DNA from: a virus
IMG/VR virus record: IMGVR_UViG_3300014839_000007
Reading direction: 5' to 3' (one strand)
Length of the DNA stretch: 64,000 bases
In this document: one piece after another, positions 3,792-62,747 of the stretch
Layout: every line of letters starts with the position of its first letter
Position numbering within the stretch: the stretch's first letter is position 1
Program-made: the position numbers and the translations under genes
Notes under the pieces: model-generated
What the model was told of the DNA's origin: nothing
Database searches by the model: none
The model's input: only the letters and a program-made list of their open reading frames with translations

Positions 3792-5819
3792 TCATTTTTC
3801 TACCAACTTATAAAATCCTCTTCTTGGCTCGTAAATTTTTATTTCTTTTTTTAATTCTTCCAAAAATATTTTTGTATCCCATTCACTTATACTTATTTTT
3901 TCTGCTTCCTCTACTATAGTTCCATACTTAGTTTCTTCTTCAATATTTCCCATTAAGGAATGCAATAATTCTAAAAACCTATCTAACTTTCCTCTCTTAC
4001 TCATTGGAATCCTTTCATTCATTCTAGAAAAGTCATACATTCCTGTTTCTTTATCTTTTACAAGTTGATTAACACAAAACATAAATATTTCTTTTGCTAC
4101 ATTTAAATCTAAAACCTCAACTTTATCACTTAACCTTAATTTAGCATGTGCTTCTGCTAATTTTACAACGGCTTCCATATTTCTTAAATTAACCGGAATA
4201 GTCTTCATATCAGGATTTCCCTTAGACTTTGCTCTAAGTTCAACATAAAATGATTGAACATCACTAACTAAACTATCATCAAGTATTGGCTTTAATTTTC
4301 TACAATAAGTAATGTATTTTTTAAAAAGAGATAATGGGACCTCTGGTTCCATCTTTTCTTTATATGACTTAAAAATATGCTCTACCGCTTTGGAATCAAA
4401 TTTTTCATTTGGTCTGTCTATTAAAATAAATATTAAATCAAATCTATTTAAAATTGGTGTAGGCAAATTAATCTGCTGCGCAAGGGATTGATTTAAATCG
4501 TAATTTCCCATTTTTGGATTTGCTGAAGCTAAAATGCTTGTACTTGCAGGAAGTGTTGCAGAAATGCCAGCCTTATTAATAGTGACTGTAGAACCAGACA
4601 TTGGTTCTAATAATTCTGAAAGATGCTCTGGATACATCTTATCTAATTCATCAAGACATAATGTTGAACCATTTGCAAGTACTAAAGCTCCTATTTCTAG
4701 CGACCATGTATTTGTTAATTCATCTTTAACCGCCATTGCCCCCAAACCTACTTTAGAAGTTTTTGTCCCAACAACCATTTTTGCTCTAGGTGTTCTTGCT
4801 GCTGTAGCTTTTAAAGAAACAGATTTTGCAATACCTACATCACCTGTAATTAAGATATGAATATCTTCTTGAGTATGCGAACCATCACTTCTTTCTTTTC
4901 CTACTCCTTTCACACACTGTAAACAAATTGCTTTTTTTACCATATCATTCCCATATACTTCTGGAACTAAACTTTGTGATAATTTTTCAAGAGGATTATC
5001 TGCTGCAATTTCTTTTATTGTTTGCATATCGTCTTCGGTTATTGTTAAATCGTCTTCAGAATCGCAGGGAATCACATTATTTGCATACATCATAAATTCA
5101 GATAAATTTGAATCCTCATCATTCACACTCATAAATGTAGGTAATTTCTTTATTATCCCAATAACTTCTACACGCCTTCCTGGTTGCAATCTTGAACACA
5201 ACGAACCGTCTGTTAATTCTTCCTCTAAATAAACTCTTAGCTGTTGAGGTTGCTTTCCGTCAAGATTGCCCTGTATCTCTTCTAAATTTAACTCTTGAAT
5301 ATTTTTAACTTCCTCCGATATTGCTGTAAATGTTCCACCTCTTAGTATACTTGCTCCACAAGAACATCTTTTTGGTCCTATTTTCTTTCGACCTTCCTGA
5401 TGAACATTTATCTCTATAGGGCAACTATTACATTTATATTTTATATTTATTGTTCGTGGAATTACCTTAGTTATTCTCTTAATAATTCCTTTTATATTAA
5501 AAATCTCATCAATATTATTTGCTCTTATATTATGAATATCTATATATCTATCATAATTCGTAAGTGCTATATGTGCATTCTTAGTCAGACCAGTATTATT
5601 GAGCGCTTGCTCCATTGCTCCTAATACCTTTTCAGGATTTAACAAAAATTCATCTGCAAGTTTATTAGAAAATTCTTTAACTTTTGTAAAATCAAGTGTC
5701 ATTACATTTGTTCTTTTACGCAAACAATCTCCTAAATCTTCTTTATTATAATTAAAAAAGTTTGCCGCTTCCATCAACAAATCCTCTTCTTCTTTTGGTG
5801 AAGGATTATTTTTTATCAT
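3792..5819 (-). CDS. mcm: MCM-family replicative helicase
   Basis: N-terminal C4 zinc finger (CNSCP...CSCG). Walker A ILITGDVGIAKS, Walker B CLDELDKM and arginine finger SILASANP match the MCM motifs GDPGxAKSQ, IDEFDKM and SVLAAANP. Confidence 0.85.
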   Translation of the reverse strand: MIKNNPSPKEEEDLLMEAANFFNYNKEDLGDCLRKRTNVMTLDFTKVKEFSNKLADEFLLNPEKVLGAMEQALNNTGLTKNAHIALTNYDRYIDIHNIRANNIDEIFNIKGIIKRITKVIPRTINIKYKCNSCPIEINVHQEGRKKIGPKRCSCGASILRGGTFTAISEEVKNIQELNLEEIQGNLDGKQPQQLRVYLEEELTDGSLCSRLQPGRRVEVIGIIKKLPTFMSVNDEDSNLSEFMMYANNVIPCDSEDDLTITEDDMQTIKEIAADNPLEKLSQSLVPEVYGNDMVKKAICLQCVKGVGKERSDGSHTQEDIHILITGDVGIAKSVSLKATAARTPRAKMVVGTKTSKVGLGAMAVKDELTNTWSLEIGALVLANGSTLCLDELDKMYPEHLSELLEPMSGSTVTINKAGISATLPASTSILASANPKMGNYDLNQSLAQQINLPTPILNRFDLIFILIDRPNEKFDSKAVEHIFKSYKEKMEPEVPLSLFKKYITYCRKLKPILDDSLVSDVQSFYVELRAKSKGNPDMKTIPVNLRNMEAVVKLAEAHAKLRLSDKVEVLDLNVAKEIFMFCVNQLVKDKETGMYDFSRMNERIPMSKRGKLDRFLELLHSLMGNIEEETKYGTIVEEAEKISISEWDTKIFLEELKKEIKIYEPRRGFYKLVEK

Positions 5820-8094: not shown

Positions 8095-8640
8095 TTATTC
8101 TAATAAAACTGCAACAGCAATTGTTGTTGTCCAAAGCCCACATTTATCCCCTTCACAGGATTGACATATTGACGTTGTCTTAAAAATTTGCCCAGATGCC
8201 TTGTAAACATCTTCCCTTTCTTCCCAGGCGGTATCAGGATTAAATTCAATTCCTAAAGTTGTTGCTAACATTGTCGCAGCTAAATCCTCAGCATAATCCC
8301 CTGCTTTTTTTGCTGTTTCTCCAAAAGTGTGGTGTTCTGACAAATAACCATACTGCTTATCATTTTCTTTTGGGACGGCTATACCAATTGCGGAAGCCAT
8401 TAATCTATTTGGTTCATTGGACTGTATCCTTGCCATTACACAAAAAGTAATCTGTCCTGGACTTAATTTTTTTAATCCTTCTTCCCTAGATATTATTTTA
8501 CAATTTGGAGGTAATATTGACGAAACATATACAAGATTGCACTTTTCAATTCCAGCATCTCTTAGTGCAAGTTCGAACGAACTTAATTTGTCTTTATGAA
8601 TTCCCACCCCTTTTGTTAAGAATAAATTAGTTGGTACCAT
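8095..8640 (-). CDS. pdaD: pyruvoyl-dependent arginine decarboxylase (PvlArgDC)
   Basis: Matches archaeal PdaD in length and the self-cleavage region (VYVSSILPP vs NLIRISSIMPP in M. jannaschii). Size is about 180 aa. Confidence 0.8.
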
Positions 8641-9343
8641 TTTATTATTTCAGTTTTTCTACCTTTTTAAATGTTTCTTATTTTTTGATTTTTGTTGACT
8701 TTTTTAAAGAATTTTAAAAGTTTTAACCTTTTTAACTTCTTTAATTTTTGATTAAAAACTGCTCATTTTTCTTCACTTTTGCGCAGGTTAATAATATAAA
8801 TAATAATATAGATTTTCCAATTTTTAAAAGTCTAAAACAAAAAGGGTGTCTCAGTCTTTTAACTTTTTGGGGTAGAAAAGGTGTTTTTGGCACTTTCAAG
8901 CCTTCAAGATACCCAAATTTGAGCTTTTAGAAAGTTAAAAGTGTTAACCTTTTTAAAGGTTTTCTACCAAATAGAAAAGGTGAAATATGCCTCTACAAGT
9001 CTTAATAAGTATAAATATAATACTTTACTATAATAATAATGTTCACCTTTTTAAAAAACTGGGGAGTACTGGTAGATACAACTGCTATAAAAAATGTAAA
9101 GTTAATACCCCTTACCGAATAACTATCATATAACACATATAAACAATATTGCTTCGAATATAATATATATTCAATTGAATATAATTTTAAATAATGGGAA
9201 AAATTTCCCAGAATATGAAATGGATATGATTTACAGTATATATTATATAAATGTAATTTTGAGAAATTTAATAATGTAATATAAAGTATGTAGTTTAATA
9301 TATAAATGGATGTAATAAAAATGACTAAAATTAGGTCAAAATT
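8641..9343. promoter_or_regulatory. ORF-free, extremely AT-rich region of about 700 bp with repeated AACCTTTTTAA/TTTTAAA elements; candidate origin or promoter region
   Basis: No ORF on either strand. Recurring aaccttttta(a) blocks at about 8724, 8945 and 9043. Lies between the replication module and repeat array A. Confidence 0.3.
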
Positions 9344-9522
9344 TATTCTTCTTCTGTCCAGTCATAAGCAATTATATTCTTGCCGTTCAAACAGCTATTC
9401 ATATGTTCTCCTTCTTCATTAAGGTCTAAAGGAGTTCCGTTTGCCATTGCTCTTTTACAAGCTGCCTTTAACTCTTCAAGCTCCTTCTTTGATAAATTTT
9501 CTAATTCATACATGTGCACCAT
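9344..9522 (-). CDS. small hypothetical protein (59 aa)
   Basis: Hand-translated as MVHMYELENLSKKELEELKAACKRAMANGTPLDLNEEGEH.... It falls below the 60-aa cutoff of the ORF track. Confidence 0.3.
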
Positions 9523-9530
9523 ATCTTCAC

Positions 9531-10245
9531 TTTATGAATATAAATTTCCTTACCACAACCAACTGGAGCCAACTTCATCGGACCTCAATAAAGCCCAACG
9601 AACTAGACTGCAACATAATGCACTGCAGGAATATGAATATAAAATCCTTACCTTAACTTGCTCCCTAAACTTTATCAAACTGGACCTAACAACGCCGTCC
9701 GAATGAATATGAAATCCACACCTTAACCTGAGCCCAATCTACCGTACTCCAATATACTAAACTGTGCTCCAAAAATATTAATATTTCCATACCTCAACAA
9801 AATGCACCGGGCTGGACCCTGCTTTACTGCATTATAACATACTTGAATATAATTCTGTACCTCAACTTACTCCTCCGAGCCTTATCAAACTGGACCTAAC
9901 AACGCCGTCCGAATAAATATAAAATTCCAAACCGTAACTGAGCATACTCTGCTGCACTGCACTTCATTCTACCACAAAGTGACAAACTCTACTCTATAAT
10001 TATAAATTTCCTTACCTTAACTGACCAAAGTATACTCAACAATGCCCAACAGCAAAATACAATACCTAATAAATATAAAAAATCCAAACCTTACCAGACA
10101 CTACCGAAACGGACAATAACAAACTTGAATTAACCACATGAATGTAAATCCTTACCTTACTCTACTGAAATATGCTCCATAATATCTCACTCAAGCATAC
10201 CGTATGAATATTAAACTCCTCAAAAATCAAAGGAGCAATTTTAAA
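9531..10245. repeat. array A: about 10 degenerate tandem units, period roughly 63-92 bp (mostly about 70), consensus TGAATATAAAATCCTTACCTTAAC plus G-depleted spacer
   Basis: Motif starts near 9541, 9633, 9705, 9775, 9845, 9913, 9997, 10067, 10140 and 10203. Spacers are A/C/T-rich with very few G on the plus strand. Stop codons in all frames. Confidence 0.8.
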
Positions 10246-10249
10246 AAAT

Positions 10250-11134
10250 TTATTTACTTGCCTTTGCCTTTATCGGAATTTCCCCCAAAATTAATTGAGG
10301 ATTAATTCCATCTTTTGTTAAGACAATCTTCGTGTTATTTTCCAAAGAAGCTTGAGTAACTTCTAATCTTTTCAATGTTATAGCATTGTCAACGAATGAT
10401 TTATTTATTAAATCAAATGCTTTAGCTTGTCCCTCTGCTGTTAAAATTCTTGCTAATTTATCTCCTTCTGCTCTTAAGATTTGTGCTTGTTTTTCTCCAT
10501 CAGCCTCTTTTATTGCAGCCCTTCTTTTACCATCAGCTTGTGTTTCATTAGCCGTAGCTAAATCCAATGCAGCATCCTTGGTATTTTGTGCCTTAATAAC
10601 ATTATTCATTGTTGCTTGAACATCTGCAGGAGGAATAATTTCTTTAAGTTCTACTTTAAGAACCCTAACACCCCAATCTTTAGTTTCTATAGATAATATG
10701 CTTTGAAGTTTATCATTGAGTATCTTTCTTTCACTATTTACTTCTTTGAAGAGCATAGTACCAATTACATTCCTTGCAGTTGTTCTTGCTAAAGTATCTA
10801 ACTGAGAATATACATCTTTAACTTCATACATTACATTATAAAGATTAGCTTTGTCCTTATCTATCTTAAAGTAAACAACTAAATCAACATTTGCATTAAG
10901 ATTATCTTTTGTAATAATCTCTTGTGGTTCTATATGTGTCATTTGTTCAGTAACATTAATTAATATTAATCTCTGAAATATAGGAAGCACATAATTAAGT
11001 CCTGGTTCTCTTATTCCAGAAAATTTTCCAAGAGTTTCTACAACTCCTCTGCTGTTTGGTCTAATTGTTCTTATTCCAGAAAGAAAATAAATCACCAAAA
11101 TAACTAAAATTGCATATAATATATATTCTATCAT
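10250..11134 (-). CDS. SPFH/band-7 (stomatin/prohibitin-like) membrane protein
   Basis: N-terminal TM helix, then a typical band-7 core (RGVVETLGKFSGIREPGLNYVLPIFQRL...DNLNANVDLVVYFKI) and an Ala/Gln-rich coiled-coil tail. Confidence 0.8.
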   Translation of the reverse strand: MIEYILYAILVILVIYFLSGIRTIRPNSRGVVETLGKFSGIREPGLNYVLPIFQRLILINVTEQMTHIEPQEIITKDNLNANVDLVVYFKIDKDKANLYNVMYEVKDVYSQLDTLARTTARNVIGTMLFKEVNSERKILNDKLQSILSIETKDWGVRVLKVELKEIIPPADVQATMNNVIKAQNTKDAALDLATANETQADGKRRAAIKEADGEKQAQILRAEGDKLARILTAEGQAKAFDLINKSFVDNAITLKRLEVTQASLENNTKIVLTKDGINPQLILGEIPIKAKASK

Positions 11135-11367
11135 TGTACAAGTTTACAACCACAATTTTCACAAATCTTATCTGCTAAATAAGCTTTTATTGTGGTTCCT
11201 TTTGGGATATCATAAGAGTATTCATCTTCACAATTCCCACATGCAATATTCATACTGTATGTTTCATCTTCGTCAGAATCTTCCTCTTCTTCTTCCTCTT
11301 CTTCGTCGTCTTCTTTCTCAGAACGTTTGTCTAAATCGTCTTTATCTTTTTTACCAAATAATCCCAT
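11131..11367 (-). CDS. acidic Zn-ribbon protein co-transcribed with the SPFH gene
   Basis: Poly-Glu/Asp tract, CGNCED...CENCGC. ATGA overlap with the SPFH gene. Confidence 0.45.
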   Translation of the reverse strand: MGLFGKKDKDDLDKRSEKEDDEEEEEEEEDSDEDETYSMNIACGNCEDEYSYDIPKGTTIKAYLADKICENCGCKLVQ

Positions 11368-11374
11368 TTTCTTT

Positions 11375-11746
11375 TTACCTCCTTATACCTCTATTTATCA
11401 ATTCTTGATTATCAATTTTTTCATTAGCTCTGCTTATTGCTCTATCCCAATTACATTTAATCCAATAATAAAAACCATAGATTATTGCTGCAAGAATAAA
11501 TAAGCAAATAAGTCCTACAATAGAATAGCCAATATAACTTTCAATAGATGTCATTGAACAAGTATAACAAAAAATATCATGTGGAGCACATGTCCTTTGG
11601 CAAGATAATTCAAAAGTTTTATCAATAAAAAACCCAGCATATGAAGACGCATAAAGACCGATTAATACTAATATAACTATCCCAATTTCTTTTGCTTTTT
11701 GTTTCCAAAAATATTTCCAAACTAAATTTTTCTTATCTTTTTCCAT
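11375..11746 (-). CDS. membrane protein (2-3 TM)
   Basis: Hydrophobic helices IGIVILVLIGLYASSYAGFFI and YSIVGLICLFILAAIIYGFYYWI. Confidence 0.4.
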   Translation of the reverse strand: MEKDKKNLVWKYFWKQKAKEIGIVILVLIGLYASSYAGFFIDKTFELSCQRTCAPHDIFCYTCSMTSIESYIGYSIVGLICLFILAAIIYGFYYWIKCNWDRAISRANEKIDNQELINRGIRR

Positions 11747-11799
11747 TTTAATTTAGTTTTATCACTCCAAAATTTTCAATATAAGGGTGTTTATGGTCT

Positions 11800-12093
11800 C
11801 TATAATTTAATGGTTTGATTATCATATTTCCATTTAATACAATCAAGTCCTAAATCTGTAGATAATTCCCCCGTGTCTATAAAATCTATATGTAATGAAT
11901 CGTCCCATAAATCACAAGCACTTAAACAAAAAGCATGGTTATTTAAATAATCCATCTCTCCTTGTATTTTTGATGTATCTACCAATGGTTTTGGTTGATA
12001 TAAGCAGATAGTTAATATACATCCAAGTAAGAGAGTAACTCCGACAATTATAACTATACTTTTAGCTTTCCTATCATCCTCTTTCTTTTCCAT
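11800..12093 (-). CDS. membrane-anchored protein
   Basis: N-terminal TM KSIVIIVGVTLLLGCILTICLY. Confidence 0.35.
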   Translation of the reverse strand: MEKKEDDRKAKSIVIIVGVTLLLGCILTICLYQPKPLVDTSKIQGEMDYLNNHAFCLSACDLWDDSLHIDFIDTGELSTDLGLDCIKWKYDNQTIKL

Positions 12094-19659: not shown

Positions 19660-19995
19660 TTACCTCCTTTTAGCTCTTTCATTAACTATTTTTAAATTAT
19701 CTTTTGCTTTACATTTATCTATAATTAATTTCTTTCTATTAATACCAATATTTTCCATTACTCCACATTCATTAAAAAAATCTCTCCATTCTAAAGCATT
19801 TTCCTGTTGTGCGAGAGATTTACCTTTTTCTTCTATTTGTAAAGGAGTTATTGCAGAAACTTTATAACCTTCATTTAATAAATCTCTTATAGAATAAACA
19901 TCTCCATCATCTAATATCCAACCCTCGTCATCCTTAACTCCATAAATCTTATTACCTTCAAAAAGATAATCTTCTACAAATATAACTCCTTTCAT
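19660..19995 (-). CDS. conserved hypothetical protein, paralog of 33894..34250
   Basis: YLFEGNKIYG(V/I)KDD(E/D)GW(I/V)LDDGD(V/I)YSI(R/K)DL(L/I)xEGYKVSAITPLQIEEKGK is nearly identical in the two copies. Confidence 0.45.
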   Translation of the reverse strand: MKGVIFVEDYLFEGNKIYGVKDDEGWILDDGDVYSIRDLLNEGYKVSAITPLQIEEKGKSLAQQENALEWRDFFNECGVMENIGINRKKLIIDKCKAKDNLKIVNERAKRR

Positions 19996-20214
19996 ATCTG
20001 CTTCTTTTTCTAATTTTTCAATTTCTTTATCTATCTTGTTTTATTTAATTTGTCAATAGACTTCCTTCTTGTTTTTGTATTTTTAAATTTTAAATCATAC
20101 GAAAGCTTATTTGACTTTTTAATATTCTCTTTGCTCCATAAATCGCTATCGCAATTTGGACAAACATCTAAATCGTCTCTTACAAGTTCAGCACAAACTG
20201 GGCATAAGTTCATT

Positions 20215-25781: not shown

Positions 25782-27362
25782 CACCATATCTTGCTGAAGT
25801 CCGCCTTAAAGTACCGGACAGGAATGGACTGCATTGTACCATCCTTAGTGAATATAATCTGGACCGAACCATCTTTACCGAAGTCCAACTTACGTGACCG
25901 GGCTTCAATGGACTACGCCACATGAATATAGTTATGGTGCGATTTATTAAATTAAGTTAACGTTAATTGGGGTAGGTGTAGTAAGGATTTCATAATAATT
26001 ATTTTACAATTTTCCTACCTTCAACCTTACCCTTCTTTTTTAATTCTTCATTTTGGTTTTTTATTCTACCAATACAATAAAAACAAACGTAACCAAATAA
26101 ACATTCGTATATAGTATAGCTGTCTGCATCAAACCATTTACCACAAATGCAGCATTGTTCTTTACAAAAAACATTATTCTTTAATCTGTATATTTTTAAA
26201 TTCATTTTCTACACCTTAGCATACTTCGCTCCGACTTACTTTAAGGCACTTCATTGCACCTCTCTAGACTTCTAACTATGAAAATAACTTTTTTGACCTA
26301 TCCGAATTTAAAAAATTTATTAATCCTCTTCTTCATCAATTATGATTTCATCTTCATCAACATCTACATCCATCATATCATCTATTTCTTCATCATCTTT
26401 TTCTTTTAATTTTTCTTTTTCCATTTTTCCTCCTTTCACTTTTCTTCTACTAAAAAATAATGCCAAACTAACCTTTCCTTTTTATCAGCGATTGATAGTT
26501 TAGATTTTACATCGTGTTTCCAAGTAGTAACTTCTTCAACCAATGTAGTCAAATAAATTGCTCCTTTTGGTATTTCCATTCCTGTTCCATACTTATATAC
26601 TTTTTTCATTTAATTCCTCCTTTATAAAATTTTCCTAACCATACCTTAACTTAATACACCCCACTGCACTCCACTTCTCTTTATCAAACTCCACTGAAAC
26701 ACATTACACTGAGCCTGACTTTATGAATATGAAAATCCTTGCCTTAACTCACAATACCTAAACCACATACCAACTCAACTTACTCAACCTTGAATATAAT
26801 TCCAAACCCCACCATAACAAACTCCAATTAAGTATACCTTACAAGACCCAATCAGACTAGAATGCAACACACTAGAACATTATTTTTTGAATATGAAAAT
26901 CCTTACTGCACCTTACCTTTCACCTTATCCCAATGTAACGTAGCTTACTGCTTCTTACCAAAATGGAGCATACCAAATCGGACTATACAGCACTCCGACA
27001 AATATGAATATAAATAAATTCCGCACCTTAACATAACCCATCACACAACATCACACTATACTCAACCCCAAACTACCCTTAACTATAAATATAAATCCTT
27101 ACCTTATCCCATATAAACTTGACCGGACATTACTCCGCCTTACTTAACCAAGCCTAAATAAATATAAATTCCGCACCATATCTTACAGCATTTTGCTTTA
27201 CTCTACCAGACTAAACTGGACTCCGTGAATATAAAATCCTTACCTCAACATTCCCTACTTACCTTACTGGGCTGGAACCCACTTTGAATATAATTCCAAA
27301 CCTCACTTAACCTTATCTTACCCTATTGCAACTCACAAAATAATACCATTCCTAAATATAAA
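25782..27362. repeat. array B: degenerate roughly 70-bp unit array interrupted by three tiny minus-strand ORFs
   Basis: Motif starts near 25845 and 25918, then 26724, 26791, 26888, 27005, 27083, 27155, 27226, 27286 and 27352. Same consensus and G-depleted spacers as array A. Confidence 0.75.
25999..26205 (-). CDS. small Zn-finger protein embedded in array B
   Basis: CCICGKW...CFYC. Confidence 0.35.
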   Translation of the reverse strand: MNLKIYRLKNNVFCKEQCCICGKWFDADSYTIYECLFGYVCFYCIGRIKNQNEELKKKGKVEGRKIVK

Positions 27363-27508
27363 TTTAAAAAAATAAAAATTAGTCTAAACTTTCTTTTGGA
27401 TAATTTAATTTGATTTCTTTTACTGCTTCTCGGTATTCTTTAGAATTTAATCCGAAAATTCTTTCGGCATCTTCTAAATCATTCCACAAATCAATTAAAT
27501 CAGCCATT

Positions 27509-28138
27509 TTACGCTGTAGCTACAGTGAACATTCCGTATTGACCTCCGTGTTGAGGTGTCCACGAACCAACTCCAATGTGAAATCCAGCTAGCTTTGCTA
27601 ACTCAATTATCTGTACTGGGGTTATTTGCTGTTCATTGTACCTAATTGTTAAGACACAACTCCATTCTTGAAACTCTGGTCTCCATATTTCTCTTGGGGC
27701 TCTATTTATACCACTATCCCTGCCCATAGCTTTGTTGGTTACTTGTTTCTTATATTTTATAGGTGCTAATTCCCCCAAAATAAAGAAAGAACCCTTAGCT
27801 TTCTTTTTATCCAGACCATCCAAATATGGTGCTGCTTCTACCATAGCTTTCTTAAATCCACTAGTTGGAAAACACACTTCACCCTTTGAGTTTTTGTGTA
27901 TCTTTTCCTTAACTTCGTTTTCTAAGTCTCTATTCTTGTTTTTCTCTTTTCCTTTACCTTCAACCATATTCTTAAGTTGTTCTCTAATTCTATCACTCAT
28001 TTTTTCTTGCAACAAAGATGTTTCTCCATTAACTTTTAATGACATCGTAGCAATTTTAATTGGAGTAATAGTTACCTGAACTTTCTTATTAGGTGTCTTT
28101 TCAACTTCAACTTTCTTCGCCTTATCTTCTTTTATCAT
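27509..28138 (-). CDS. conserved hypothetical protein (GSWTPQHGGQYG family), intact paralog
   Basis: 209 aa. C-terminal GFHIGVGSWTPQHGGQYG is shared with 28781..29382. A repeat unit lies immediately upstream. Confidence 0.5.
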   Translation of the reverse strand: MIKEDKAKKVEVEKTPNKKVQVTITPIKIATMSLKVNGETSLLQEKMSDRIREQLKNMVEGKGKEKNKNRDLENEVKEKIHKNSKGEVCFPTSGFKKAMVEAAPYLDGLDKKKAKGSFFILGELAPIKYKKQVTNKAMGRDSGINRAPREIWRPEFQEWSCVLTIRYNEQQITPVQIIELAKLAGFHIGVGSWTPQHGGQYGMFTVATA

Positions 28139-28214
28139 TTCTTTTTACCTCCTTTCATTTATATAAAATATTCCTTACCTTAACTGAACTCAATCCTGCT
28201 CAATCACACCTTAC

Positions 28215-28415
28215 TTAAGTCCGTCTCGGTTTGCGTACTTCTTCCCAATCATTATTCTCTTTCTTTTTAGTGAATTTTTGAAGTAAATCCTTGTGCCCAC
28301 AATTTTTACACACTAAAACTATCTTAAACAATTCTTCTTCTTTTATATTCGGATGTTGTTCTGCAAACTCTTTTAAAGTTATAACTTCCGGTTCTTCTTC
28401 TTTTATTTCTTCCAT
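28215..28415 (-). CDS. small hypothetical protein with CxxC
   Basis: ORF preceded by a repeat unit at about 28416-28500. Confidence 0.3.
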   Translation of the reverse strand: MEEIKEEEPEVITLKEFAEQHPNIKEEELFKIVLVCKNCGHKDLLQKFTKKKENNDWEEVRKPRRT

Positions 28416-28780
28416 TTAATATATGTCCGCACCAAACTGAATCACTATACCCTAATCCACCCTATAGCATCGTACCATAAATATTATTCTTTGTTAATTC
28501 TTTCAATTTCCTTTTTTACTGCTATTTGAATTAAAGTATCATCACTATAGCTCATACCATCTTTAGCCAAAAGCAATCTCCTAAAATCTTCAAGCAACTT
28601 TTTTGTTTTATCTTTCATTATTAATCCTCATCCAAATAATCCTCACTATGAAAATCTTTAATTGCTTGTTTTTTATCCTTTAAACTTATCATATCTGTTA
28701 ATACATCTAAACTATTTCCTCTAACCCACATTTCTGCAATTCTATAAAATTCATCTTCTATTTCTTCTTTTTTCATTTTA

Positions 28781-29382
28781 TTATTTAACTTTAAATTTAC
28801 CATATTGACCTCCGTGTTGAGGTGTCCACGAACCAACTCCAATGTGAAATCCAGCTAGATTTGCCAATTCAATTAAATCTTTTTCTGTTATTCTTTGAGA
28901 ATTATATTTAATTGTTAGAATACAATTCCAATTTTCAAATGAGGGGTATCGCATAAGCCTTTTTGTTTTTTCTCTGCCAAAATTGATGCCAAAAAATCTA
29001 ATTGTACTTTGTTTCTTATATTTAATAGGAACTAAGTCACCTATAATAAAGAAACCTCCCTTTGTGTCACCCTTACTTAAATGTGAATGATATGGACTTG
29101 CTTCTACCATAGCTTTCTTAAATCCACTAGTTGGAAAACACACTTCACCTTTAGCATTTCGATGTATCATTTCATCCACTCTTTTTTGTAATTCTTCTTC
29201 TTCATCATAATCCTTTAACGTTTTACTCTTCCCTTCAACCATATTCTTAAGTGTTCTCTAATCCTATCACTCATCTTTCCCATAATTAAAGGACTTGTTC
29301 CTTTAATATTTAATTTCATTGTAGCAATCTTAATCGGAGTAATAGTTACATTTACTCTTTTTTTTATGTTTTGAAAATTCAT
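28781..29382 (-). pseudogene. frameshifted paralog of 27509..28138 (1-nt deletion near 29250)
   Basis: Track ORF 28781..29242 aligns to residues about 60-209 of the intact copy. The N-terminal 47 aa (MNFQNIKKRVNVTITPIKIATMKLNIKGTSPLIMGKMSDRIREHL) are encoded in another frame at 29243..29382. The plus strand has aagtgttctc here versus aagttgttctc in copy 1. Confidence 0.5.
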
Positions 29383-29472
29383 TTTTTGTTTCCTTTTTAA
29401 TTAAATCTAAACCTTACCTTATCTCATTTCACCTCAATGGAACTTATCTAACTGCCCCATACTTAAGAATAT

Positions 29473-29856: not shown

Positions 29857-30326
29857 CTTTCTTTTAATTCCTTCTTTTTAATTATGATATTCGCTCCTAA
29901 TTTAGGAGAATAAACCATTACACTAATTTTAGTTATTTCCTGTAAAACTTCAACATTATCAACTAATCTTTCCCCTTCAAATTCTAAATCAATATGATAT
30001 TTTTTCATATTCTATTAAATGATTTTCCAATTTCCTTTTTTGGAACTTTTATTTTAAATCCAGTAGGATATTCTGTTAATTCTACTTCATCATTAAAATC
30101 TTTAGTACACTCATATTCTATTCCATTTAAATCCCTAAGCCATTCTTTTATTTTCATTATAATCCTTACCTTATCACACTCCAAAGCACCGAACTTAAGT
30201 CCGCAAGTACCTTACTTTATGAATATAAATCCACACCATAACGCTAACGAAGTGAGCCTTAATACACTTAATCTTGCTGTACTCCACTGTTACTAAATAA
30301 AACCCACTGCACTTAACCACATAATA

Positions 30327-31045: not shown

Positions 31046-31648
31046 TTATATTTTAGATAATAACACAATTTTATTAATAACACCTTGAAAATCTTTCTTT
31101 ATCTTTCTTCTTGGAATTTTTTTCATTTCAAAAAGATGTTTAATATATCCAATATATTCATTTGTAGCAAATTCATAAGACAATTCTTTGTTATAATTAC
31201 CAGGCTTTATATCGCCTCTTTCCCATATTTTAACATAAGAATAAAAGCTCTCTTTTTTTCTAAATATAAATTTATTTTTAAGAACTTCTGCATTTCCCTT
31301 ATCTTTATATCTCTCATCTGGAGAAGTATATTCTGAGCAAACAGCAATTATATGATTTATAGAATAACAATCATTATCTGTTTGGGGATTAAAATATCTT
31401 ATTTCAAAGTTAAATCTTTCCTTCTCTTTTGAAGAGTGTGATTCATAAGCATCGATTGTTAATATTAATGTATTACAATCATATACTGAAATTGTAAAAG
31501 TCGTATAATTTCTCCAAGCTTCATCTTTTATATCTGTTACCTTAAAATCAAAGTCTAAAAACTTATAGTCTTTTTTATTTAACCAAGCCTTACTTATAGT
31601 TAAAGATTTTAATTGACTTAGACGTCCCATTCTATTTCTTGCACTCAT
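31046..31648 (-). CDS. hypothetical protein (200 aa)
   Basis: ORF preceded by a motif copy (GGTATGGGATTTTATATTCA) about 20 nt upstream of an AGAGGA Shine-Dalgarno. Confidence 0.35.
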   Translation of the reverse strand: MSARNRMGRLSQLKSLTISKAWLNKKDYKFLDFDFKVTDIKDEAWRNYTTFTISVYDCNTLILTIDAYESHSSKEKERFNFEIRYFNPQTDNDCYSINHIIAVCSEYTSPDERYKDKGNAEVLKNKFIFRKKESFYSYVKIWERGDIKPGNYNKELSYEFATNEYIGYIKHLFEMKKIPRRKIKKDFQGVINKIVLLSKI

Positions 31649-31659
31649 ATTTTTTCCTC

Positions 31660-31985
31660 TTTTTGAATATAAAATCCCATACCATAACTGAATGGACCGT
31701 GCATCACCCTACCTGAGTAAATCGCACTGTATCATACACTACTCCATGAATATAATCCTTACCACAACAAATTAAACTCCACGCCATCGTACTCCACCCA
31801 ACTGCAATGGAACTCAACTATAATTAATGAATATGAAATCCTTACCTTAACCTTAACATAGCGGAAGTTACCACACTGGAATACACTCCAATATGACTAT
31901 GAATATAATCCATACCTTAACGGACCGGGGCTTACTCCGCCTGACTCAACGGCAACTTACTACACTATATTGCACCGGAATAAAT
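31660..31985. repeat. array C: 5 units of the same roughly 70-80-bp repeat
   Basis: Motif starts near 31664, 31747, 31828, 31899 and 31977. Confidence 0.7.
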
Positions 31986-32237
31986 ATAATCTGGTTTTGG
32001 ACTTTTATATTGTTCATAATCCAAAACTGTTTTTAATACACCATCACTTATTATTAAATACATTTCATTATACTTTAAAACAAAATTAAATTTATTTGTT
32101 TCTTCAATAAGTTCCCCATCTTTTAATGCTTTTTTCAATAAGATAATAGTTTGTTTTTTATCTTTTAATTCAAACCTTTGTCTTGCTCTCATTATAGCAT
32201 GACTGCTTATATCGGTTAATCCATTTCTTTTTATCAT
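31965..32237 (-). CDS. hypothetical protein
   Basis: The start codon is immediately preceded by GTTGAGGTAAAGATT, the Shine-Dalgarno-like half of the repeat motif. Confidence 0.3.
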   Translation of the reverse strand: MIKRNGLTDISSHAIMRARQRFELKDKKQTIILLKKALKDGELIEETNKFNFVLKYNEMYLIISDGVLKTVLDYEQYKSPKPDYIYSGAI

Positions 32238-33041
32238 AATCTTTACCTCAACTCACTAAACATACCATACTGGAATGGAACCCACTCCGCTTGACTCAAC
32301 TAGAGTATAATTATTGATTTGCTTTTAATTCTTCGGCATATTCAATTAATTCTTCATCTGTTGTAAAATTAATCTTATCTTCTGTTTGTGCACATTCTAA
32401 GTGCCACTTACCTTCACTAATTTCCCAACCATATTCTTCACATAATTCTAATGCTTCTTTAATATCCATTATTTTGCTTCCTGCCTAATACTATTAAGTA
32501 TTTTCACTCTTTCTTCTTCTGCTTTCTTTAAATCAATTCCAAAATATTCTCCTAATATTTTTTCTCTATCTAAATAAATGGTCACAAGTTGTTCTTCATC
32601 AAATTCATCAAACTTTTTGTATTCAGCAATATGGTATCCTTTCTCTCCTAACAGCCAATCTAAAAATTCTCCTATTGCTTGTGATTTTTCTCTAATCTTT
32701 CTTATCTTATCTAATTCTGGCGTTTCTATTTTTTCCATTTAAATTACCTTTAAAATTTTAAGTGCCTTTTGTATTGTATCTTCATATTGTTTTTCATTCA
32801 TTGTATTTGGATTATAATTAACAATTGGATTTAATTTCTTAATTCCAAAAAGGTGTCTTTTCTTTTGTTTGTAAATAATTACTTCTAATAAGTTTAAAAT
32901 AGTTGAGCATTCCATACCCAATTTATCATTGACAATTGTCAAATCCAAATTTTCAGTTTTACTAGTCTTTTCACTTAAAACAATTAATCTAGGATATCTT
33001 ACTACTTCGTATTCTTCTTTTTTCTTTTCCATATTTCCTCC

Positions 33042-33893: not shown

Positions 33894-34250
33894 TCATTTC
33901 TTCTCCTTAAAATTTGCTTTCAATTTATTCTTAAAATTCTCTTTCATTGTTTTAGGAAAATCAATCTCATTGCTCCATTCTTCAAAAAAGTTATCGGTAA
34001 TTTCTAAAACATTTTTAATGGCTTGCTGTTTTCCCTTTTCTTCTATTTGTAAAGGGGTTATTGCAGAAACTTTATAACCTTCATCTATTAAATCCTTTAT
34101 AGAATAAATGTCTCCATCATCTAATACCCAACCATCATCATCTTTAATTCCATATATTTTATTTCCTTCAAAAAGGTAATTTTCTATAATTATTATTCCT
34201 TTCATATCTGCTTCTTTTTCTAACTTTTCAATTTTATTTTCTTTAGTCAT
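33894..34250 (-). CDS. conserved hypothetical protein, paralog of 19660..19995
   Basis: See 19660..19995. N-terminal 15-aa extension. Confidence 0.45.
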   Translation of the reverse strand: MTKENKIEKLEKEADMKGIIIIENYLFEGNKIYGIKDDDGWVLDDGDIYSIKDLIDEGYKVSAITPLQIEEKGKQQAIKNVLEITDNFFEEWSNEIDFPKTMKENFKNKLKANFKEKK

Positions 34251-34500
34251 TTTTTCTCCTTTATTTTTATATATTCTTTTTTACTAATTCTTTTCCATTT
34301 ATTTAAAATTCTTCCTTCATTGAATTGGCAGTAACACATTCCTGCTCCTCCACTTCCACATTCATATAAGATATCACTTTCTATTGTGATACCTCCACAA
34401 TTTGGACACTTGTAATATTTTTCTTTAAATATTTTTCTTTAAATTTATTTCCTTCAAGAGCCTTTAATATCTCTTTCCTTAAATCTTTCTTGTGTTTCAT
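34247..34500 (-). pseudogene. RKEIxxLEG-module Zn-ribbon gene disrupted by a 14-bp tandem duplication (34417-34430 / 34431-34444)
   Basis: N-terminus MKHKKDLRKEILKALEGNKFKEKY ends in a stop. The Zn-ribbon part (KYYKCPNCGGITIESDILYECGSGGAGMCYCQF...) continues in another frame. The plus strand shows atttttctttaaat twice in tandem. Confidence 0.4.
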
Positions 34501-34720
34501 ATAAAATAATCCTCACCATACTGAAACTTACTATGACTTAGACATACCGAGCTCCACTCCGCCTAAATTAAATATTATTGATTGCTATCCCATTTATAAT
34601 ATAGTCTACAATTCCGTTTTTAATACAAACCTTCCTTGTAGAGCCATCACTATAAATTTCAATAGCAATCAATTTACCATCCTCTTTTCCATATTCCACT
34701 ACTTCTAAATTTGCCATCTT

Positions 34721-43063: not shown

Positions 43064-43639
43064 CTAAAAAAATTCCACCCTTATTTCTTTTATCCTTCCT
43101 GTTTCCTTTTCTATTTTAGCAATAACAGGATAACAGCCATCTCCATATCCAGATTGTGTAACCACCCCAACTCCAGGATGTCCCATCTTATAATTCAATT
43201 GTCCACTATTCTTCATACTTGCCTTACAACAAGCATTATAAGAAAAATTGCTCTTTGCTTTTTCTTTTCCCATAGTATATTCTTCGTGTTCCCATTCACT
43301 ATCAATATAACAGGGGTCACATATGAGTATTTGTCCAGCGTCTACACCAACAACACCTATTTCTTTTTCTTCATAAGTTCCAATTACACCTTCTTCTCCA
43401 ACTAACTTCTTTTTAATTTTCGCTATTTCTTTTCTTTCCATTTTAACCTCCTTATGATAATTTCCAAACCAAACCTTAGTGAAGTATAGTATACTGTATA
43501 GCAGTAAATCCCACTCCACCTTAACTATAAATTTGTTTAAATTCAAGGCATCCGCAATAGACACCATCATTTTTGTGTCCACAACCAATTCTTTCATCAC
43601 CTTCCATTTTATGAATGTGCTCTTCTTTTGTATGTCCAC
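43064..43639 (-). CDS. hypothetical Cys-rich protein
   Basis: GVDAGQILICDPCY...GVVTQSGYGDGCYPV. Confidence 0.35.
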   Translation of the reverse strand: MDIQKKSTFIKWKVMKELVVDTKMMVSIADALNLNKFIVKVEWDLLLYSILYFTKVWFGNYHKEVKMERKEIAKIKKKLVGEEGVIGTYEEKEIGVVGVDAGQILICDPCYIDSEWEHEEYTMGKEKAKSNFSYNACCKASMKNSGQLNYKMGHPGVGVVTQSGYGDGCYPVIAKIEKETGRIKEIRVEFF

Positions 43640-62734: not shown

Positions 62735-62747
62735 TTAGCCTTTAGCC
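62727..62747 (-). promoter_or_regulatory. triple heptad KGCTAAA element (copy 5)
   Basis: Plus strand tttagcatttagcctttagcc. Confidence 0.45.

What the first reader, a model, noticed from the sequence alone, without database searches (positions are those of the whole stretch)
9531..10245. Degenerate tandem arrays with a period of about 70 bp (promoter-like motif plus G-depleted spacer), in at least three arrays and many single copies
About 10 units at 9.53-10.25 kb, about 11 at 25.78-27.36 kb and 5 at 31.66-31.99 kb. Single units occur at about 28141-28215, 28416-28500, 29400-29472, 30157-30326, 32238-32300, 34500-34570 and 63900 onward. All share a conserved roughly 24-bp motif (plus strand TGAATATAAAATCCTTACCTTAAC) followed by a roughly 45-bp spacer that is A/C/T-rich and almost G-free on the plus strand. 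In the orientation of the genes the motif reads GTTAAGGTAAGGATTTTATATTCA, which looks like a TATA or -10 box preceded by a Shine-Dalgarno-like AAGGTAAGGA. Where a single unit precedes a gene the order is TATA-like box, then about 48 nt of C-poor leader, then GTTGAGGTAAAGATT, then ATG (for example gene 31965..32237, and GATAAGGTAAGGATTATAATG before the small ORF at 30004..30156). The arrays therefore look like head-to-tail concatenated gene leaders (promoter, 5'UTR and ribosome-binding site) with no ORFs, or an array of very short RNA genes. The repeats are too degenerate and the spacers too compositionally uniform for CRISPR, and the units are too unstructured for tRNA. I do not recognise this as a described element.
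Basis: seen in the sequence. Interest (0 to 1): 0.85.

Follow-up and report, generated by a model that had tools for sequence, protein, structure and literature searches.

The report
Viral VIPR guide-RNA gene arrays
The ~70-bp repeats are head-to-tail genes for the guide RNAs (vrRNAs) of a VIPR system, a CRISPR-like, virus-encoded RNA-guided DNA-silencing system first described in 2026, carried here by a large archaeal virus-like element; several guides appear to be written against the catalytic motifs of restriction-modification enzymes.

Summary
The repeats are real, occur only on the gene (minus) strand, and are far beyond chance. They are not promoter/leader cassettes. Each unit is a tract of 9-20 pentamers (median 12) of the form Y-N-N-R-G, followed by a 10-16 nt A/U-rich tail, A(W)TTT(Y)ATATTCA. 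Position 1 is T in 85% of pentamers and positions 2-3 are near maximal entropy. This is the anatomy of VIPR vrRNAs (bioRxiv 10.64898/2026.04.26.720920). The partner protein is present. Window 27509-28138(-) encodes a 209-aa protein whose family profile hits the solved SUSP1 Vipr protein (E=3.7e-12). Its AlphaFold model matches Cas7/Csm3 RAMPs. A frameshifted paralog lies at 28787-29361. Five related metagenomic elements carry the same arrays. Reading the NN dinucleotides with the published 1-nt-skip rule gives codon strings for textbook restriction-modification motifs: (I/M)(F/L)GGFPCQAFTIAG, DPACGTGGFLV, (F/L)(I/M)G(F/L)TGTP and (D/N/S)PP(Y/F). These appear only in the correct register and in 0 of 2000 NN shuffles. 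No natural target locus was found. Verdict: a new member of a very recently described kind. The possibly new twist is guides aimed at conserved protein motifs of DNA methyltransferases and restriction helicases.

The parts
9535..10215 (-). vrRNA array A1 (the finding): an orphan tail at 10205-10215, then 9 head-to-tail vrRNA units of 11-16 YNNRG pentamers each plus an A/U tail. Units 9913-9844 and 9703-9634 are a duplicated guide.
   Evidence: duplicate seen as family D10
26619..27355 (-). vrRNA array A2, immediately downstream of vipr-1: 9 units of 5-20 parsed pentamers. It follows an oligo-T stretch and a first TATA-like tail at about 27352-27363.
25849..25950 (-). Two further degenerate vrRNA-like units, followed by a (GCTAAWG)x3 motif and a gene start.
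31900..31979 (-). vrRNA in array A3 ('type X'), 14 pentamers. NN decoded antisense gives (I/M)(F/L)GGFPCQAFTIAG, which is C5-cytosine DNA methyltransferase motif IV. Orthologous units occur in L420, L426 and L427.
31828..31899 (-). vrRNA in array A3. NN decoded antisense gives (F/L)(I/M)G(F/L)TGTP, which is helicase motif III of HsdR/SNF2-type restriction subunits.
31747..31827 (-). vrRNA in array A3 ('type Y'), 13 pentamers. NN decoded sense gives (D/E)PACGTGGFLV(K/N), the SAM-binding motif of N6-adenine methyltransferases of the HsdM/type IIG kind. Orthologs occur in L426 and L427.
31664..31746 (-). Last vrRNA of array A3, 14 pentamers; the decoded string was not recognised. It is followed by the 200-aa gene 31046-31648.
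27509..28138 (-). vipr-1: a 209-aa Vipr (ancestral RAMP) protein with G-loop GVGSWTPQ. Orthologs are 81-84% identical in L426 and L427.
   Evidence: phrog_4652; PDB 36pp SUSP1 Vipr, E=3.7e-12; Cas7/Csm3 fold
28787..29361 (-). vipr-2: a paralog about 60% identical to vipr-1, split by a frameshift near 29218-29251. It is part of a ~1266-bp tandem duplication.
   Evidence: (D4-D6, D17)
28139..28214 (-). Single vrRNA-like unit directly upstream of vipr-1; its tail is TATTTTATATAAA.
28413..28500 (-). Single degenerate unit between vipr-2 and the 66-aa gene.
29383..29472 (-). Single degenerate unit upstream of vipr-2.
30155..30326 (-). Two units. The second has 11 pentamers, and its tail ATTATAATG overlaps a small-ORF start.
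32235..32301 (-). Single unit whose last pentamers (TGAGG) lie at SD distance from the ATG of gene 31965-32237.
34498..34566 (-). Single vrRNA ('type Z' start TTAGGCGGAGTGG), 11 pentamers. The antisense decode ends in ...PPY, the amino-methyltransferase catalytic motif.

Best explanation
The arrays are genes for VIPR guide RNAs (vrRNAs), carried by a >=116-kb archaeal virus-like element that encodes MCM.

Each ~60-115-nt unit is a tract of 9-20 pentamers, Y-N-N-R-G, followed by a short invariant A/U-rich tail, A(W)UUU(Y)AUAUUCA.

The following mechanism is taken from the published VIPR work, not shown here. One Vipr protomer (gene at 27509-28138) binds each pentamer and sequesters the G-G-Y bases. 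The two variable N bases are presented, and the filament reads double-stranded DNA with one base skipped after every two ((xNN)n). Transcription of the target is silenced.

The arrays are probably transcribed as multi-unit precursors that start after the upstream terminators, and are then cut or measured into single guides (inferred).

Decoding the guides suggests that some are directed at genes encoding conserved catalytic motifs of C5 and N6/N4 DNA methyltransferases and of restriction helicases. The likely purpose is to disarm host restriction-modification or the protective methylases of competing mobile elements (inferred; targets not found).
For: 1. Partner protein.
- The 209-aa protein hits phrog_4652 and PDB 36pp 'SUSP1 Vipr protein' (E=5.9e-5 as a single sequence).
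- A 39-sequence family profile hits the same chain at E=3.7e-12, over profile positions 21-194 and chain residues 4-186.
- The AlphaFold model (pLDDT 84) hits Csm3/Cas7/Cmr RAMPs first (E about 4e-6, probability 1.0).

2. RNA anatomy.
- There is strong 5-nt periodicity (GT z=9.0/10.3/8.3/6.2 at lags 5/10/15/20; GG z=14 in L052).
- Parsed pentamers have T at position 1 in 85%, entropy of 1.88 and 1.97 bits at positions 2-3, R at position 4 in 91% and G at position 5 in 69%.
- Units hold 9-20 repeats, median 12, followed by a 10-16 nt conserved tail.
- The published definition is 9-16 YNNGG repeats plus an invariant 3' tail, with NNNGG, YNNNG and NNNNG variants (10.64898/2026.04.26.720920).

3. 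Locus. Units flank both vipr genes, singly and in arrays, as described for VIPR loci.

4. Lineage conservation.
- The same arrays occur in L001, L420, L052, L426 and L427.
- vipr follows an array in L426 and L427.
- Relatives whose fetched fragments have no arrays (L418, L419, L428) also show no vipr there.

5. Decoding.
- The 1-nt-skip reading gives 14-, 12- and 8-codon strings that match textbook restriction-modification motifs.
- 11 of 39 guides carry such a motif, against 0-1 of 2000 NN-order shuffles per motif class.
- All four wrong pentamer registers give zero.
- Four orthologous 'type X' guides each spell a different valid variant of the C5 motif IV.

6. Negative checks. The units are unstructured (mean MFE z=0.02), are not tRNA, match no Rfam family and are non-coding.
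Against: - There is no expression or processing data for these units.
- No natural target scored above the shuffled-guide null in 8.7 Mb (both strands) of held DNA.
- Three exact-pattern scans of IMG/VR gave 0, 0 and 1 hit, and the single hit looks like chance.
- The pentamer consensus is looser (R at position 4) than canonical GGY, and several tracts need 1-2-nt phase slips.
- The tail is short and shows no conserved structure, unlike the pseudoknotted SUSP1 tail.
- Arrays A1 and A3 lie about 17 kb and 3.5 kb from vipr.
- My pentamer parser scores positions 1, 4 and 5, so their frequencies are inflated by construction. The autocorrelation and the NN entropy are independent of the parser.
- The motif list for the enrichment test was chosen after seeing the decodes, and orthologous guides are not independent.
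Confidence: 0.9

Rival explanations
1. ORF-less promoter + 5'UTR + RBS cassettes. Each unit would be an archaeal BRE/TATA promoter followed by an unstructured leader that ends in a Shine-Dalgarno sequence. The arrays would be banks of tandem strong (early) promoters.
For: - The tail contains TTTATATT, which resembles the methanogen TATA consensus TWTATATA (PMC2602779).
- Arrays start right after oligo-T or hairpin terminators.
- The last pentamers of gene-proximal units lie at this genome's SD distance.
- All units are co-oriented with the genes.
Against: - The pentamer tract, including decodable guide information, begins directly after the preceding tail. That TATA therefore cannot start the unit's RNA 19-24 bp downstream.
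- There is no initiator signal at +19 to +24.
- About a third of the tails read TTTCATATT rather than a TATA box.
- The model does not explain the 5-nt periodicity, the hypervariable positions 2-3, the adjacent Vipr gene or the codon-like decodes.
Confidence: 0.05
2. A degenerate CRISPR or mini-CRISPR array, or solitary repeat units acting as RNA anti-CRISPRs.
For: The period of about 70 bp and the repeat-plus-variable-segment layout resemble CRISPR. The partner protein is a Cas7-like RAMP.
Against: - The conserved part is only 10-24 nt and is degenerate.
- The 'spacers' have internal pentamer structure, and some are conserved between genomes.
- No cas genes other than the single small RAMP were seen among the proteins scanned.
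- The guides read as gapped codon strings rather than contiguous protospacers.
Confidence: 0.01
3. A decoy or sponge RNA for a ring-shaped RNA-binding protein, by analogy with TRAP binding 11 (G/U)AG triplets at 5-nt spacing or CsrB titrating CsrA. Alternatively a ribosome-recruiting leader rich in SD-like AGGU.
For: There is 5-nt periodicity of RGU over about 50 nt per unit, the RNA is unstructured, and the units overlap translation-initiation regions in single units.
Against: - A dedicated pentamer-binding protein family with a solved homolog (Vipr) is encoded in the locus.
- A sponge would not need hypervariable positions 2-3 that decode into protein motifs only in one register.
Confidence: 0.02
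4. DNA-level protein-binding arrays, such as iterons or a partition centromere for the ParB-like proteins, or origin elements for MCM loading.
For: - Two ParB_N proteins and a KorB-like HTH protein are encoded at 18.7-22.7 kb.
- Array A1 lies about 200 bp from a likely origin region at 8641-9342.
Against: - Unit spacing is variable (57-117 bp) with no helical phasing.
- The units are strictly strand-specific and contain no palindromes.
- A better origin candidate lies next door.
- This model leaves the pentamer code and Vipr unexplained.
Confidence: 0.02

Closest known systems
VIPR (Viral Interference Programmable Repeat) systems, e.g. type II of Escherichia phage SUSP1 (bioRxiv 10.64898/2026.04.26.720920 and 10.64898/2026.04.26.720927)
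   Same: - A small (~20 kDa) Vipr RAMP protein.
- Guide RNAs built from 9-16 pentamer repeats in which three positions are conserved and two are hypervariable, followed by an invariant 3' tail.
- Guide genes lie singly and in arrays in the intergenic DNA around vipr.
- The system is virus-borne.
- Guides read as (xNN)n, with the skipped base on the codon wobble position.
   Different: - The carrier is an archaeal element whose MCM is closest to metagenomic and DPANN MCMs, not a coliphage.
- The pentamer consensus is Y-N-N-R-G rather than Y-N-N-G-G. In the G-loop, GVGSWT replaces SUSP1 GVGDWR, and D177 contacts G1 in SUSP1.
- The tail is 10-16 nt, A/U-rich and unstructured, rather than a pseudoknot.
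- Arrays hold up to 9 units packed head to tail, and some lie 3.5-17 kb from vipr.
- There are two vipr copies, one of them frameshifted.
- No vap gene was identified.
- The decoded targets are restriction-modification enzyme motifs rather than satellite or prophage regulators.
- The VIPR type (I-VII) was not determined.
Class 1 CRISPR-Cas backbone (Cas7/Csm3 filament on crRNA)
   Same: A RAMP protein oligomerises along a guide RNA with a fixed nucleotide period and flips out bases at each period. The arrays have a conserved handle plus a variable guide. The predicted fold of the 209-aa protein matches Csm3/Cas7.
   Different: The period is 5 nt with 2 read bases, against 6 nt with 5 read bases. 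There is no Cas1/Cas2 adaptation module, no long palindromic repeat and no other cas genes. The guides are not contiguous copies of targets.
Type III toxin-antitoxin RNA arrays (ToxI repeats of ToxIN) and phage pseudo-ToxI
   Same: Tandem non-coding RNA repeats that are (or may be) cut into units which bind a protein encoded next to them. They are also carried by viruses.
   Different: By my recollection, not checked here, ToxI repeats are near-identical 34-36-nt units that inhibit a toxin. Here the units are 60-115 nt, individually different and pentamer-structured, and the partner is a RAMP rather than an endoribonuclease toxin.
TRAP-trp leader recognition in Bacillus
   Same: A protein oligomer reads a short conserved triplet repeated every ~5 nt on unstructured RNA.
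   Different: This is a geometric analogy only. There is no TRAP homolog, and the variable bases here carry information.

Membership tests
VIPR system | A Vipr protein: a small RAMP homolog (RRM core, G-loop, thumb) of about 20 kDa | tested here: met
   The 209-aa protein at 27509-28138. Its family profile hits PDB 36pp SUSP1 Vipr at E=3.7e-12 over nearly the full length, including the G-loop GVG(S/D)W. The AF2 model (pLDDT 84) has Csm3/Cas7/Cmr4-6 as top Foldseek hits.
VIPR system | vrRNA made of 9-16 tandem pentamers with conserved GGY alternating with hypervariable NN (accepted variants NNNGG, YNNNG, NNNNG) | tested here: met
   5-nt autocorrelation gives z up to 10. The parse gives Y 94% at position 1, entropy 1.88/1.97 bits at positions 2-3, R 91% at position 4 and G 69% at position 5, with 9-20 repeats and a median of 12. 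The consensus here is YNNRG; relative L052 is clean YNNGG.
VIPR system | An invariant 3' tail after the repeat tract | tested here: met
   A(W)TTT(Y)ATATTCA, 10-16 nt, follows nearly every tract. It is conserved in all six elements.
VIPR system | [quoted passage not shown] | tested here: not met
   The tail is too short and A/U-rich to fold. Whole units have a mean MFE z of 0.02. The papers describe this structure for one clade, so it is a clade feature rather than a family-defining one.
VIPR system | vrRNA genes lie in the intergenic DNA flanking vipr, singly or in arrays | tested here: met
   Array A2 starts about 150 bp downstream of vipr-1, and single units flank vipr-1 and vipr-2. In L426 and L427 an array directly precedes vipr. 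A1 and A3 are distal.
VIPR system | An accessory vap gene next to vipr | tested here: inconclusive
   The neighbours are small proteins without family hits. ParB_N and KorB-like DNA-binding proteins lie 5-9 kb downstream. There was no means here to compare them with vap1-6.
VIPR system | Units are expressed as RNAs of about 100 nt or less that co-purify with Vipr | not testable with these tools
   This needs small-RNA sequencing or pull-down.
VIPR system | NN dinucleotides specify a dsDNA target with a 1-nt skip, typically in coding DNA with the skip on the wobble base, and natural targets match at >=80% of NN positions | tested here: inconclusive
   No locus scored above the shuffled-guide null in 8.7 Mb of held DNA (both strands). 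Exact scans of IMG/VR were empty or at chance level. However, decoding as codons gives long restriction-modification motifs only in the NN register, as expected for wobble-phased targets.
VIPR system | No self-targeting by the element's own guides | tested here: met
   No window site was the best hit of any of the window's own guides, and no guide scored above its shuffled-guide null. No GGFPCQ, DPACG or DPPY-type ORFs occur in the window.
CRISPR array | Near-identical direct repeats of about 24-48 nt separating unique contiguous spacers, with cas adaptation and effector genes | tested here: not met
   The repeats are degenerate, so TRF finds nothing. The 'spacers' are pentamer tracts and some are conserved across genomes. 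The only cas-like gene found among the proteins scanned is the single RAMP.
Archaeal BRE/TATA promoter (tandem promoter bank) | A TATA box 19-24 bp upstream of an initiator or transcript start, with a purine-rich BRE just upstream | tested here: inconclusive
   A TATA-like TTTATATT is present in many tails, but there is no initiator signal. Guide information starts at +1 after the tail. The first tail after each terminator could still be the array promoter. 5'-end mapping is needed.

The most novel reading that the evidence does not exclude
This archaeal-virus VIPR locus may be an anti-restriction (or anti-competitor) device that targets protein families rather than individual genes.

Because the guide skips the wobble base, a guide can be written against an amino-acid motif. 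Here guides spell the C5-methyltransferase PCQ motif IV, the DPACGTGGFL SAM-binding motif, the (D/N/S)PPY catalytic motif, the Dam EPFVGGGA motif and the HsdR/SNF2 TGTP/TATP helicase motif.

One virus could then silence many different restriction-modification, BREX-like or orphan-methylase genes in hosts or rival elements.

The main text of the VIPR paper reports targets in satellites, prophage regulators and other VIPRs. It does not mention methyltransferases or restriction systems.
Probability: 0.5. Interest if true: 0.8.

Novelty: new member of a known kind. Interest (0 to 1): 0.7.

Why it matters
VIPR was described only in 2026, as a minimal RNA-guided DNA-recognition system proposed to predate CRISPR. 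This window adds three things.

1. It is an unusually rich natural example: about 30 guide units in three arrays plus singles, with two vipr copies, on a large archaeal element that has its own MCM replication module.

2. It gives independent support, from sequence alone, for the 1-nt-skip, wobble-phased code in a distant archaeal-type clade. The guides decode into 8-14-codon protein motifs only in the predicted register.

3. If the restriction-modification reading holds, viruses would be using programmable silencing to disarm defence or protective-methylation genes at the level of conserved protein motifs. That would be a counter-defence principle distinct from protein anti-restriction factors, and a design idea for family-wide gene repression tools.

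Tried and rejected
**Known RNA classes.** ARAGORN found no tRNA or tmRNA genes and Rfam gave no match at gathering thresholds. TRF found no ~70-bp array.

**RNA structure.**
- Per-unit MFE z-scores average 0.02 for the sense strand and 0.13 for the antisense strand.
- RNAalifold on the conserved unit types X and Y gave weak energies (-3.4 and -7.5 kcal/mol) and almost no covariation in 3-4 sequences.

**Promoter model.** There is no initiator signal downstream of the tails.

**Pattern scans of public collections.**
- The loose two-motif pattern gave mostly chance hits; only L052 was real.
- The triple-TATA pattern returned coding repeats and other unrelated arrays.
- The conserved 15-mer TTGAGTCAGGCGGAG gave only chance hits in IMG/VR.

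**Relatives.** MCM-based retrieval of 80 metagenome loci mostly returned cellular DPANN MCM neighbourhoods without arrays.

**Similarity to phages.** blastn of window 9000-12000 (array A1 and its flanks) found no DNA similarity in the phage collection.

**Target search.** The (NNx)n code found nothing above the null in held DNA. Exact IMG/VR scans for guides X and Y gave 0 hits each. A 9-dinucleotide core gave a single hit that reads ILGGLPWQA in a 52% GC contig, which is not a methylase.

**Ideas considered and dropped.**
- Integron attC sites: the units have no inverted repeats.
- Telomere-like repeats.
- R-loop or origin elements: a better origin candidate lies at 8641-9342.
- C/D-box sRNAs.
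- Mini-ORFs: (GGTAA)n places stops in all frames.
- Archaeal histone positioning: the period is 5, not 10.
Full report
**1. What is in the sequence.**
The window is 29% G+C and almost all genes lie on the minus strand. All features below are read on that strand.
With up to 3 mismatches it gives 4 hits against 0 in shuffles.
- A two-motif pattern gives 6 hits against 0.
- An nhmmer profile of the motif gives 27 minus-strand hits at E<=1. All but one (a weak hit at 43457-43478) lie in the arrays or single units, and there is only one weak plus-strand hit.
- The arrays are 9535-10215, 26619-27355 and 31664-31979. A pair lies at 25849-25950, and singles lie at about 28.2, 28.45, 29.4, 30.2 (two), 32.27 and 34.53 kb.
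- TRF misses them because the copies are too divergent.

- The 25.78-27.36 kb stretch is interrupted by small ORFs.
- The spacers are not specially C-poor on the gene strand. They have 7-12% C against 8.9% for the whole strand, and are instead A-poor and G/T-rich.

**2. The element.**
Pfam finds the following genes:
- a complete MCM helicase (3792-5819);
- an ATP-dependent DNA ligase;
- a pyruvoyl arginine decarboxylase;
- an SPFH protein;
- a radical-SAM protein;
- two ParB_N proteins;
- a DUF2201 metallopeptidase/VWA protein.

The closest MCMs are unnamed metagenomic proteins at 45-73% identity. Next come Nanoarchaeota and Woesearchaeota proteins at 35-40%. tblastn hits in annotated records are archaeal viruses and plasmids only. 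The window is 100% identical to part of a 116-kb ENA contig. I treat it as a large archaeal, possibly DPANN-associated, virus or plasmid. The host is not established.

**3.
Relative L052 (IMG/VR) has a much cleaner array, in which the 'spacers' are visibly runs of GGTNN.
- Autocorrelation in L052 gives GG z=14, 10, 9 and 10 at lags 5, 10, 15 and 20.
- The window arrays give GT z=9.0, 10.3, 8.3 and 6.2, and AG z=9.9, 6.3 and 9.1.
- Parsing backwards from each tail shows that the pentamer tract fills the whole space between tails. It starts immediately after the preceding ...ATATTCA.
- The pentamer consensus is Y-N-N-R-G: position 1 is T in 85%; positions 2 and 3 have entropy 1.88 and 1.97 bits; position 4 is G in 55% and A in 36%; position 5 is G in 69%.
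- There are 9-20 pentamers per unit, median 12.
- The parser scores positions 1, 4 and 5, so those frequencies are inflated. The autocorrelation and the entropy of positions 2-3 are independent of it.
- The units are unstructured (mean MFE z 0.02). They are not tRNAs and match no Rfam family.

**4. Conservation.**
The same arrays occur in five other, clearly different elements:
- L001, syntenic, downstream of the SPFH gene and a 131-aa gene, with MCM 61% identical;
- L420, MCM 62%;
- L052, DUF2201 40%;
- L426 and L427, DUF2201 63-66%.

Some individual units are conserved between genomes even though the proteins are only about 60-65% identical. One example is a 16-nt block, GTTGAGTCAGGCGGAG, that is identical in four genomes. 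This pointed to sequence-specific function rather than filler.

**5. The partner protein and the identification.**
- In L426 and L427 the arrays sit directly upstream of a 207-209-aa gene that is 81-84% identical to window 27509-28138. That protein is much better conserved than MCM or DUF2201.
- It hits phrog_4652 and one solved structure, PDB 36pp 'SUSP1 Vipr protein'.
- A 39-sequence family profile raises this hit to E=3.7e-12 over almost the full length, including the G-loop GVG(S/D)W.
- The AlphaFold model (pLDDT 84) finds Csm3, Cas7 and Cmr RAMPs as top PDB matches (E about 4e-6, probability 1.0).
- A paralog at 28787-29361 is split by a frameshift.

The literature search for Vipr led to two 2026 preprints. 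They describe VIPR systems as follows:
- a ~20-kDa ancestral RAMP plus vrRNAs of 9-16 YNNGG pentamers, with GGY conserved and NN hypervariable, and an invariant 3' tail;
- guide genes encoded singly or in arrays in the intergenic DNA around vipr;
- occurrence mostly in phages and archaeal viruses;
- one Vipr protomer bound per repeat;
- the NN bases reading dsDNA with one base skipped, usually the codon wobble base;
- the outcome being transcriptional silencing of competing mobile elements.

Every feature I could test is met. The variants are a looser position 4, a short unstructured tail and some arrays distant from vipr.

**6. Why the promoter/leader reading fails.**
- The tail does contain a TATA-like TTTATATT, and arrays do begin after terminators. 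The first tail of an array may therefore act as its promoter.
- However, decodable guide information begins at the first pentamer after each internal tail.
- Archaeal transcription starts 19-24 bp after the TATA box (PMC2602779), which would be too far downstream to include those pentamers.
- No initiator signal is present, and about a third of the tails read TTTCATATT.
- The 'SD-like' AAGGTAAGGA is two pentamers. In single units that abut a gene it does lie at this genome's SD distance, so a secondary RBS role is possible there.

**7. What the guides say.**
I applied the published rule: take positions 2-3 of each pentamer and insert one skipped base. I read the result as codon families on both strands.

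In array A3 of the window:
- 31979-31900 reads (antisense) (I/M)(F/L)GGFPCQAFTIAG, which is C5-cytosine methyltransferase motif IV;
- 31899-31828 reads (antisense) (F/L)(I/M)G(F/L)TGTP, which is helicase motif III of HsdR/SNF2-type enzymes;
- 31827-31747 reads (sense) (D/E)PACGTGGFLV(K/N), the SAM-binding motif of HsdM/type IIG N6-adenine methyltransferases. DPACGSG is listed as such in PMC3384240.

The orthologs of the first guide in L420, L426 and L427 read TGFPCQ...FTIAG, IDIIIGGFPCQGY...TIA and IIIGGSPCQ...FSIAG. These are different valid versions of the same motif.

Other guides read as follows:
- five guides contain PP(Y/F), four of them with the full (D/N/S)PP(Y/F) (window 34566-34498, L426, L052 and two in L420);
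- EPFVGGGA, the Dam-type motif I (L001);
- GLTATP (L427).

Controls:
- ORFs in held loci carrying these motifs are PF00145, a type I HsdR and PF01555.
- Shuffling the order of NN within each guide gives these motifs in 0-1 of 2000 trials per class, against 11 of 39 guides observed.
- Taking any other pentamer register gives none at all.

Caveats: the motif list was written after I had seen the decodes, orthologous guides are not independent, and the four-residue PPY matches are weak one at a time. The 8-14-codon strings are not plausibly chance. The guides of array A1, the finding's own coordinates, and of A2 decode to strings I do not recognise.

**8. What is not shown.**
- No natural target was found. 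The best (NNx)n matches in 8.7 Mb (both strands) of held DNA equal the shuffled-guide null. The only convergent hit, at 74-75%, is a C5 methylase in an unrelated IMG/VR contig.
- Exact scans of IMG/VR gave 0, 0 and one chance hit.
- Expression, processing, Vipr binding, the host and the VIPR type are all untested.
- Whether the targets are host restriction-modification genes (anti-defence) or the protective methylases of rival elements (inter-viral conflict, as the paper proposes in general) cannot be decided here.

**9. Verdict.**
The interpretation 'array of very short RNA genes' is right and 'concatenated leaders' is wrong. The thing is a VIPR vrRNA array set, a member of a kind first described months ago. 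Confidence is about 0.9. The decoded restriction-modification motifs are the part that may go beyond what is published. The main text of the discovery paper does not mention methyltransferase or restriction targets. I give that reading about 0.5.

Noticed in passing
window minus strand, starting at 62746, 57188, 48013, 38789 and 25779; also L426 (3 sites), L427 (5) and L428 (5): A second leader motif occurs: three tandem heptamers GCTAA(A/T)(G/T), e.g. GCTAAAGGCTAAATGCTAAA. Most copies lie 0-30 nt upstream of a gene's ATG, always in gene orientation, spaced every ~5-13 kb. In L427 one copy is fused directly to a vrRNA tail. It may be an operator, promoter or RNA-protein site marking operon starts. 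TRF reports four of the window copies as period-7 TTTAGCC.
   Followed up: partly
window 8641-9342: A 702-nt AT-rich non-coding region carries several copies of TTAAAAAGGT(T/G)AA-like repeats. It lies just upstream of the operon that contains a lineage-specific 329-aa protein and MCM. L001 has an analogous region (8615-9036) with TTTTCCGGAAAACTG repeats. This is a likely replication origin.
   Followed up: no
window 27534-28090 vs 28800-29364: A ~1266-bp tandem duplication (75-82% identity) created the two vipr copies. The upstream copy is interrupted by a frameshift near 29218-29251.
   Followed up: partly
window 19819-20045 vs 34029-34255: A 227-nt direct repeat at 85% identity, 14.2 kb apart. 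It overlaps the 3' end of gene 33894-34250 and the region around genes 19660-19995 and 20031-20213. Its meaning is unknown.
   Followed up: no
window 9913-9844 vs 9703-9634: Two vrRNA units in array A1 share most of their tract (TTCGGACGGCGTTGTTAGGTCCAGTTTGATAA...). The array has therefore grown by duplication of a ~210-bp, three-unit block.
   Followed up: partly
L052 5240-5350 and ~5710-5790: A pentamer (GGTNN) patch without any tail motif lies about 750 bp downstream of the main array. A tRNA-like sequence lies on the opposite strand nearby, possibly an integration junction of a provirus.
   Followed up: no
window about 26320-26424 (-); L420 9016-9137: Very acidic small ORFs (MEKEKLKEKDDEEIDDMMDVDVDEDEIIIDEEED; MGRNKK...DDFDDE) sit next to or inside vrRNA arrays in two different elements.
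   Followed up: no
window 27509-28138 (protein residues ~185-196): The G-loop reads GVGSWTPQ where SUSP1 Vipr has GVGDWRPR. In the SUSP1 structure D177 hydrogen-bonds the first G of GGY. The D-to-S change coincides with the relaxed R (G or A) at that pentamer position in this clade.
   Followed up: no
It may continue beyond the window edge.
   Followed up: no
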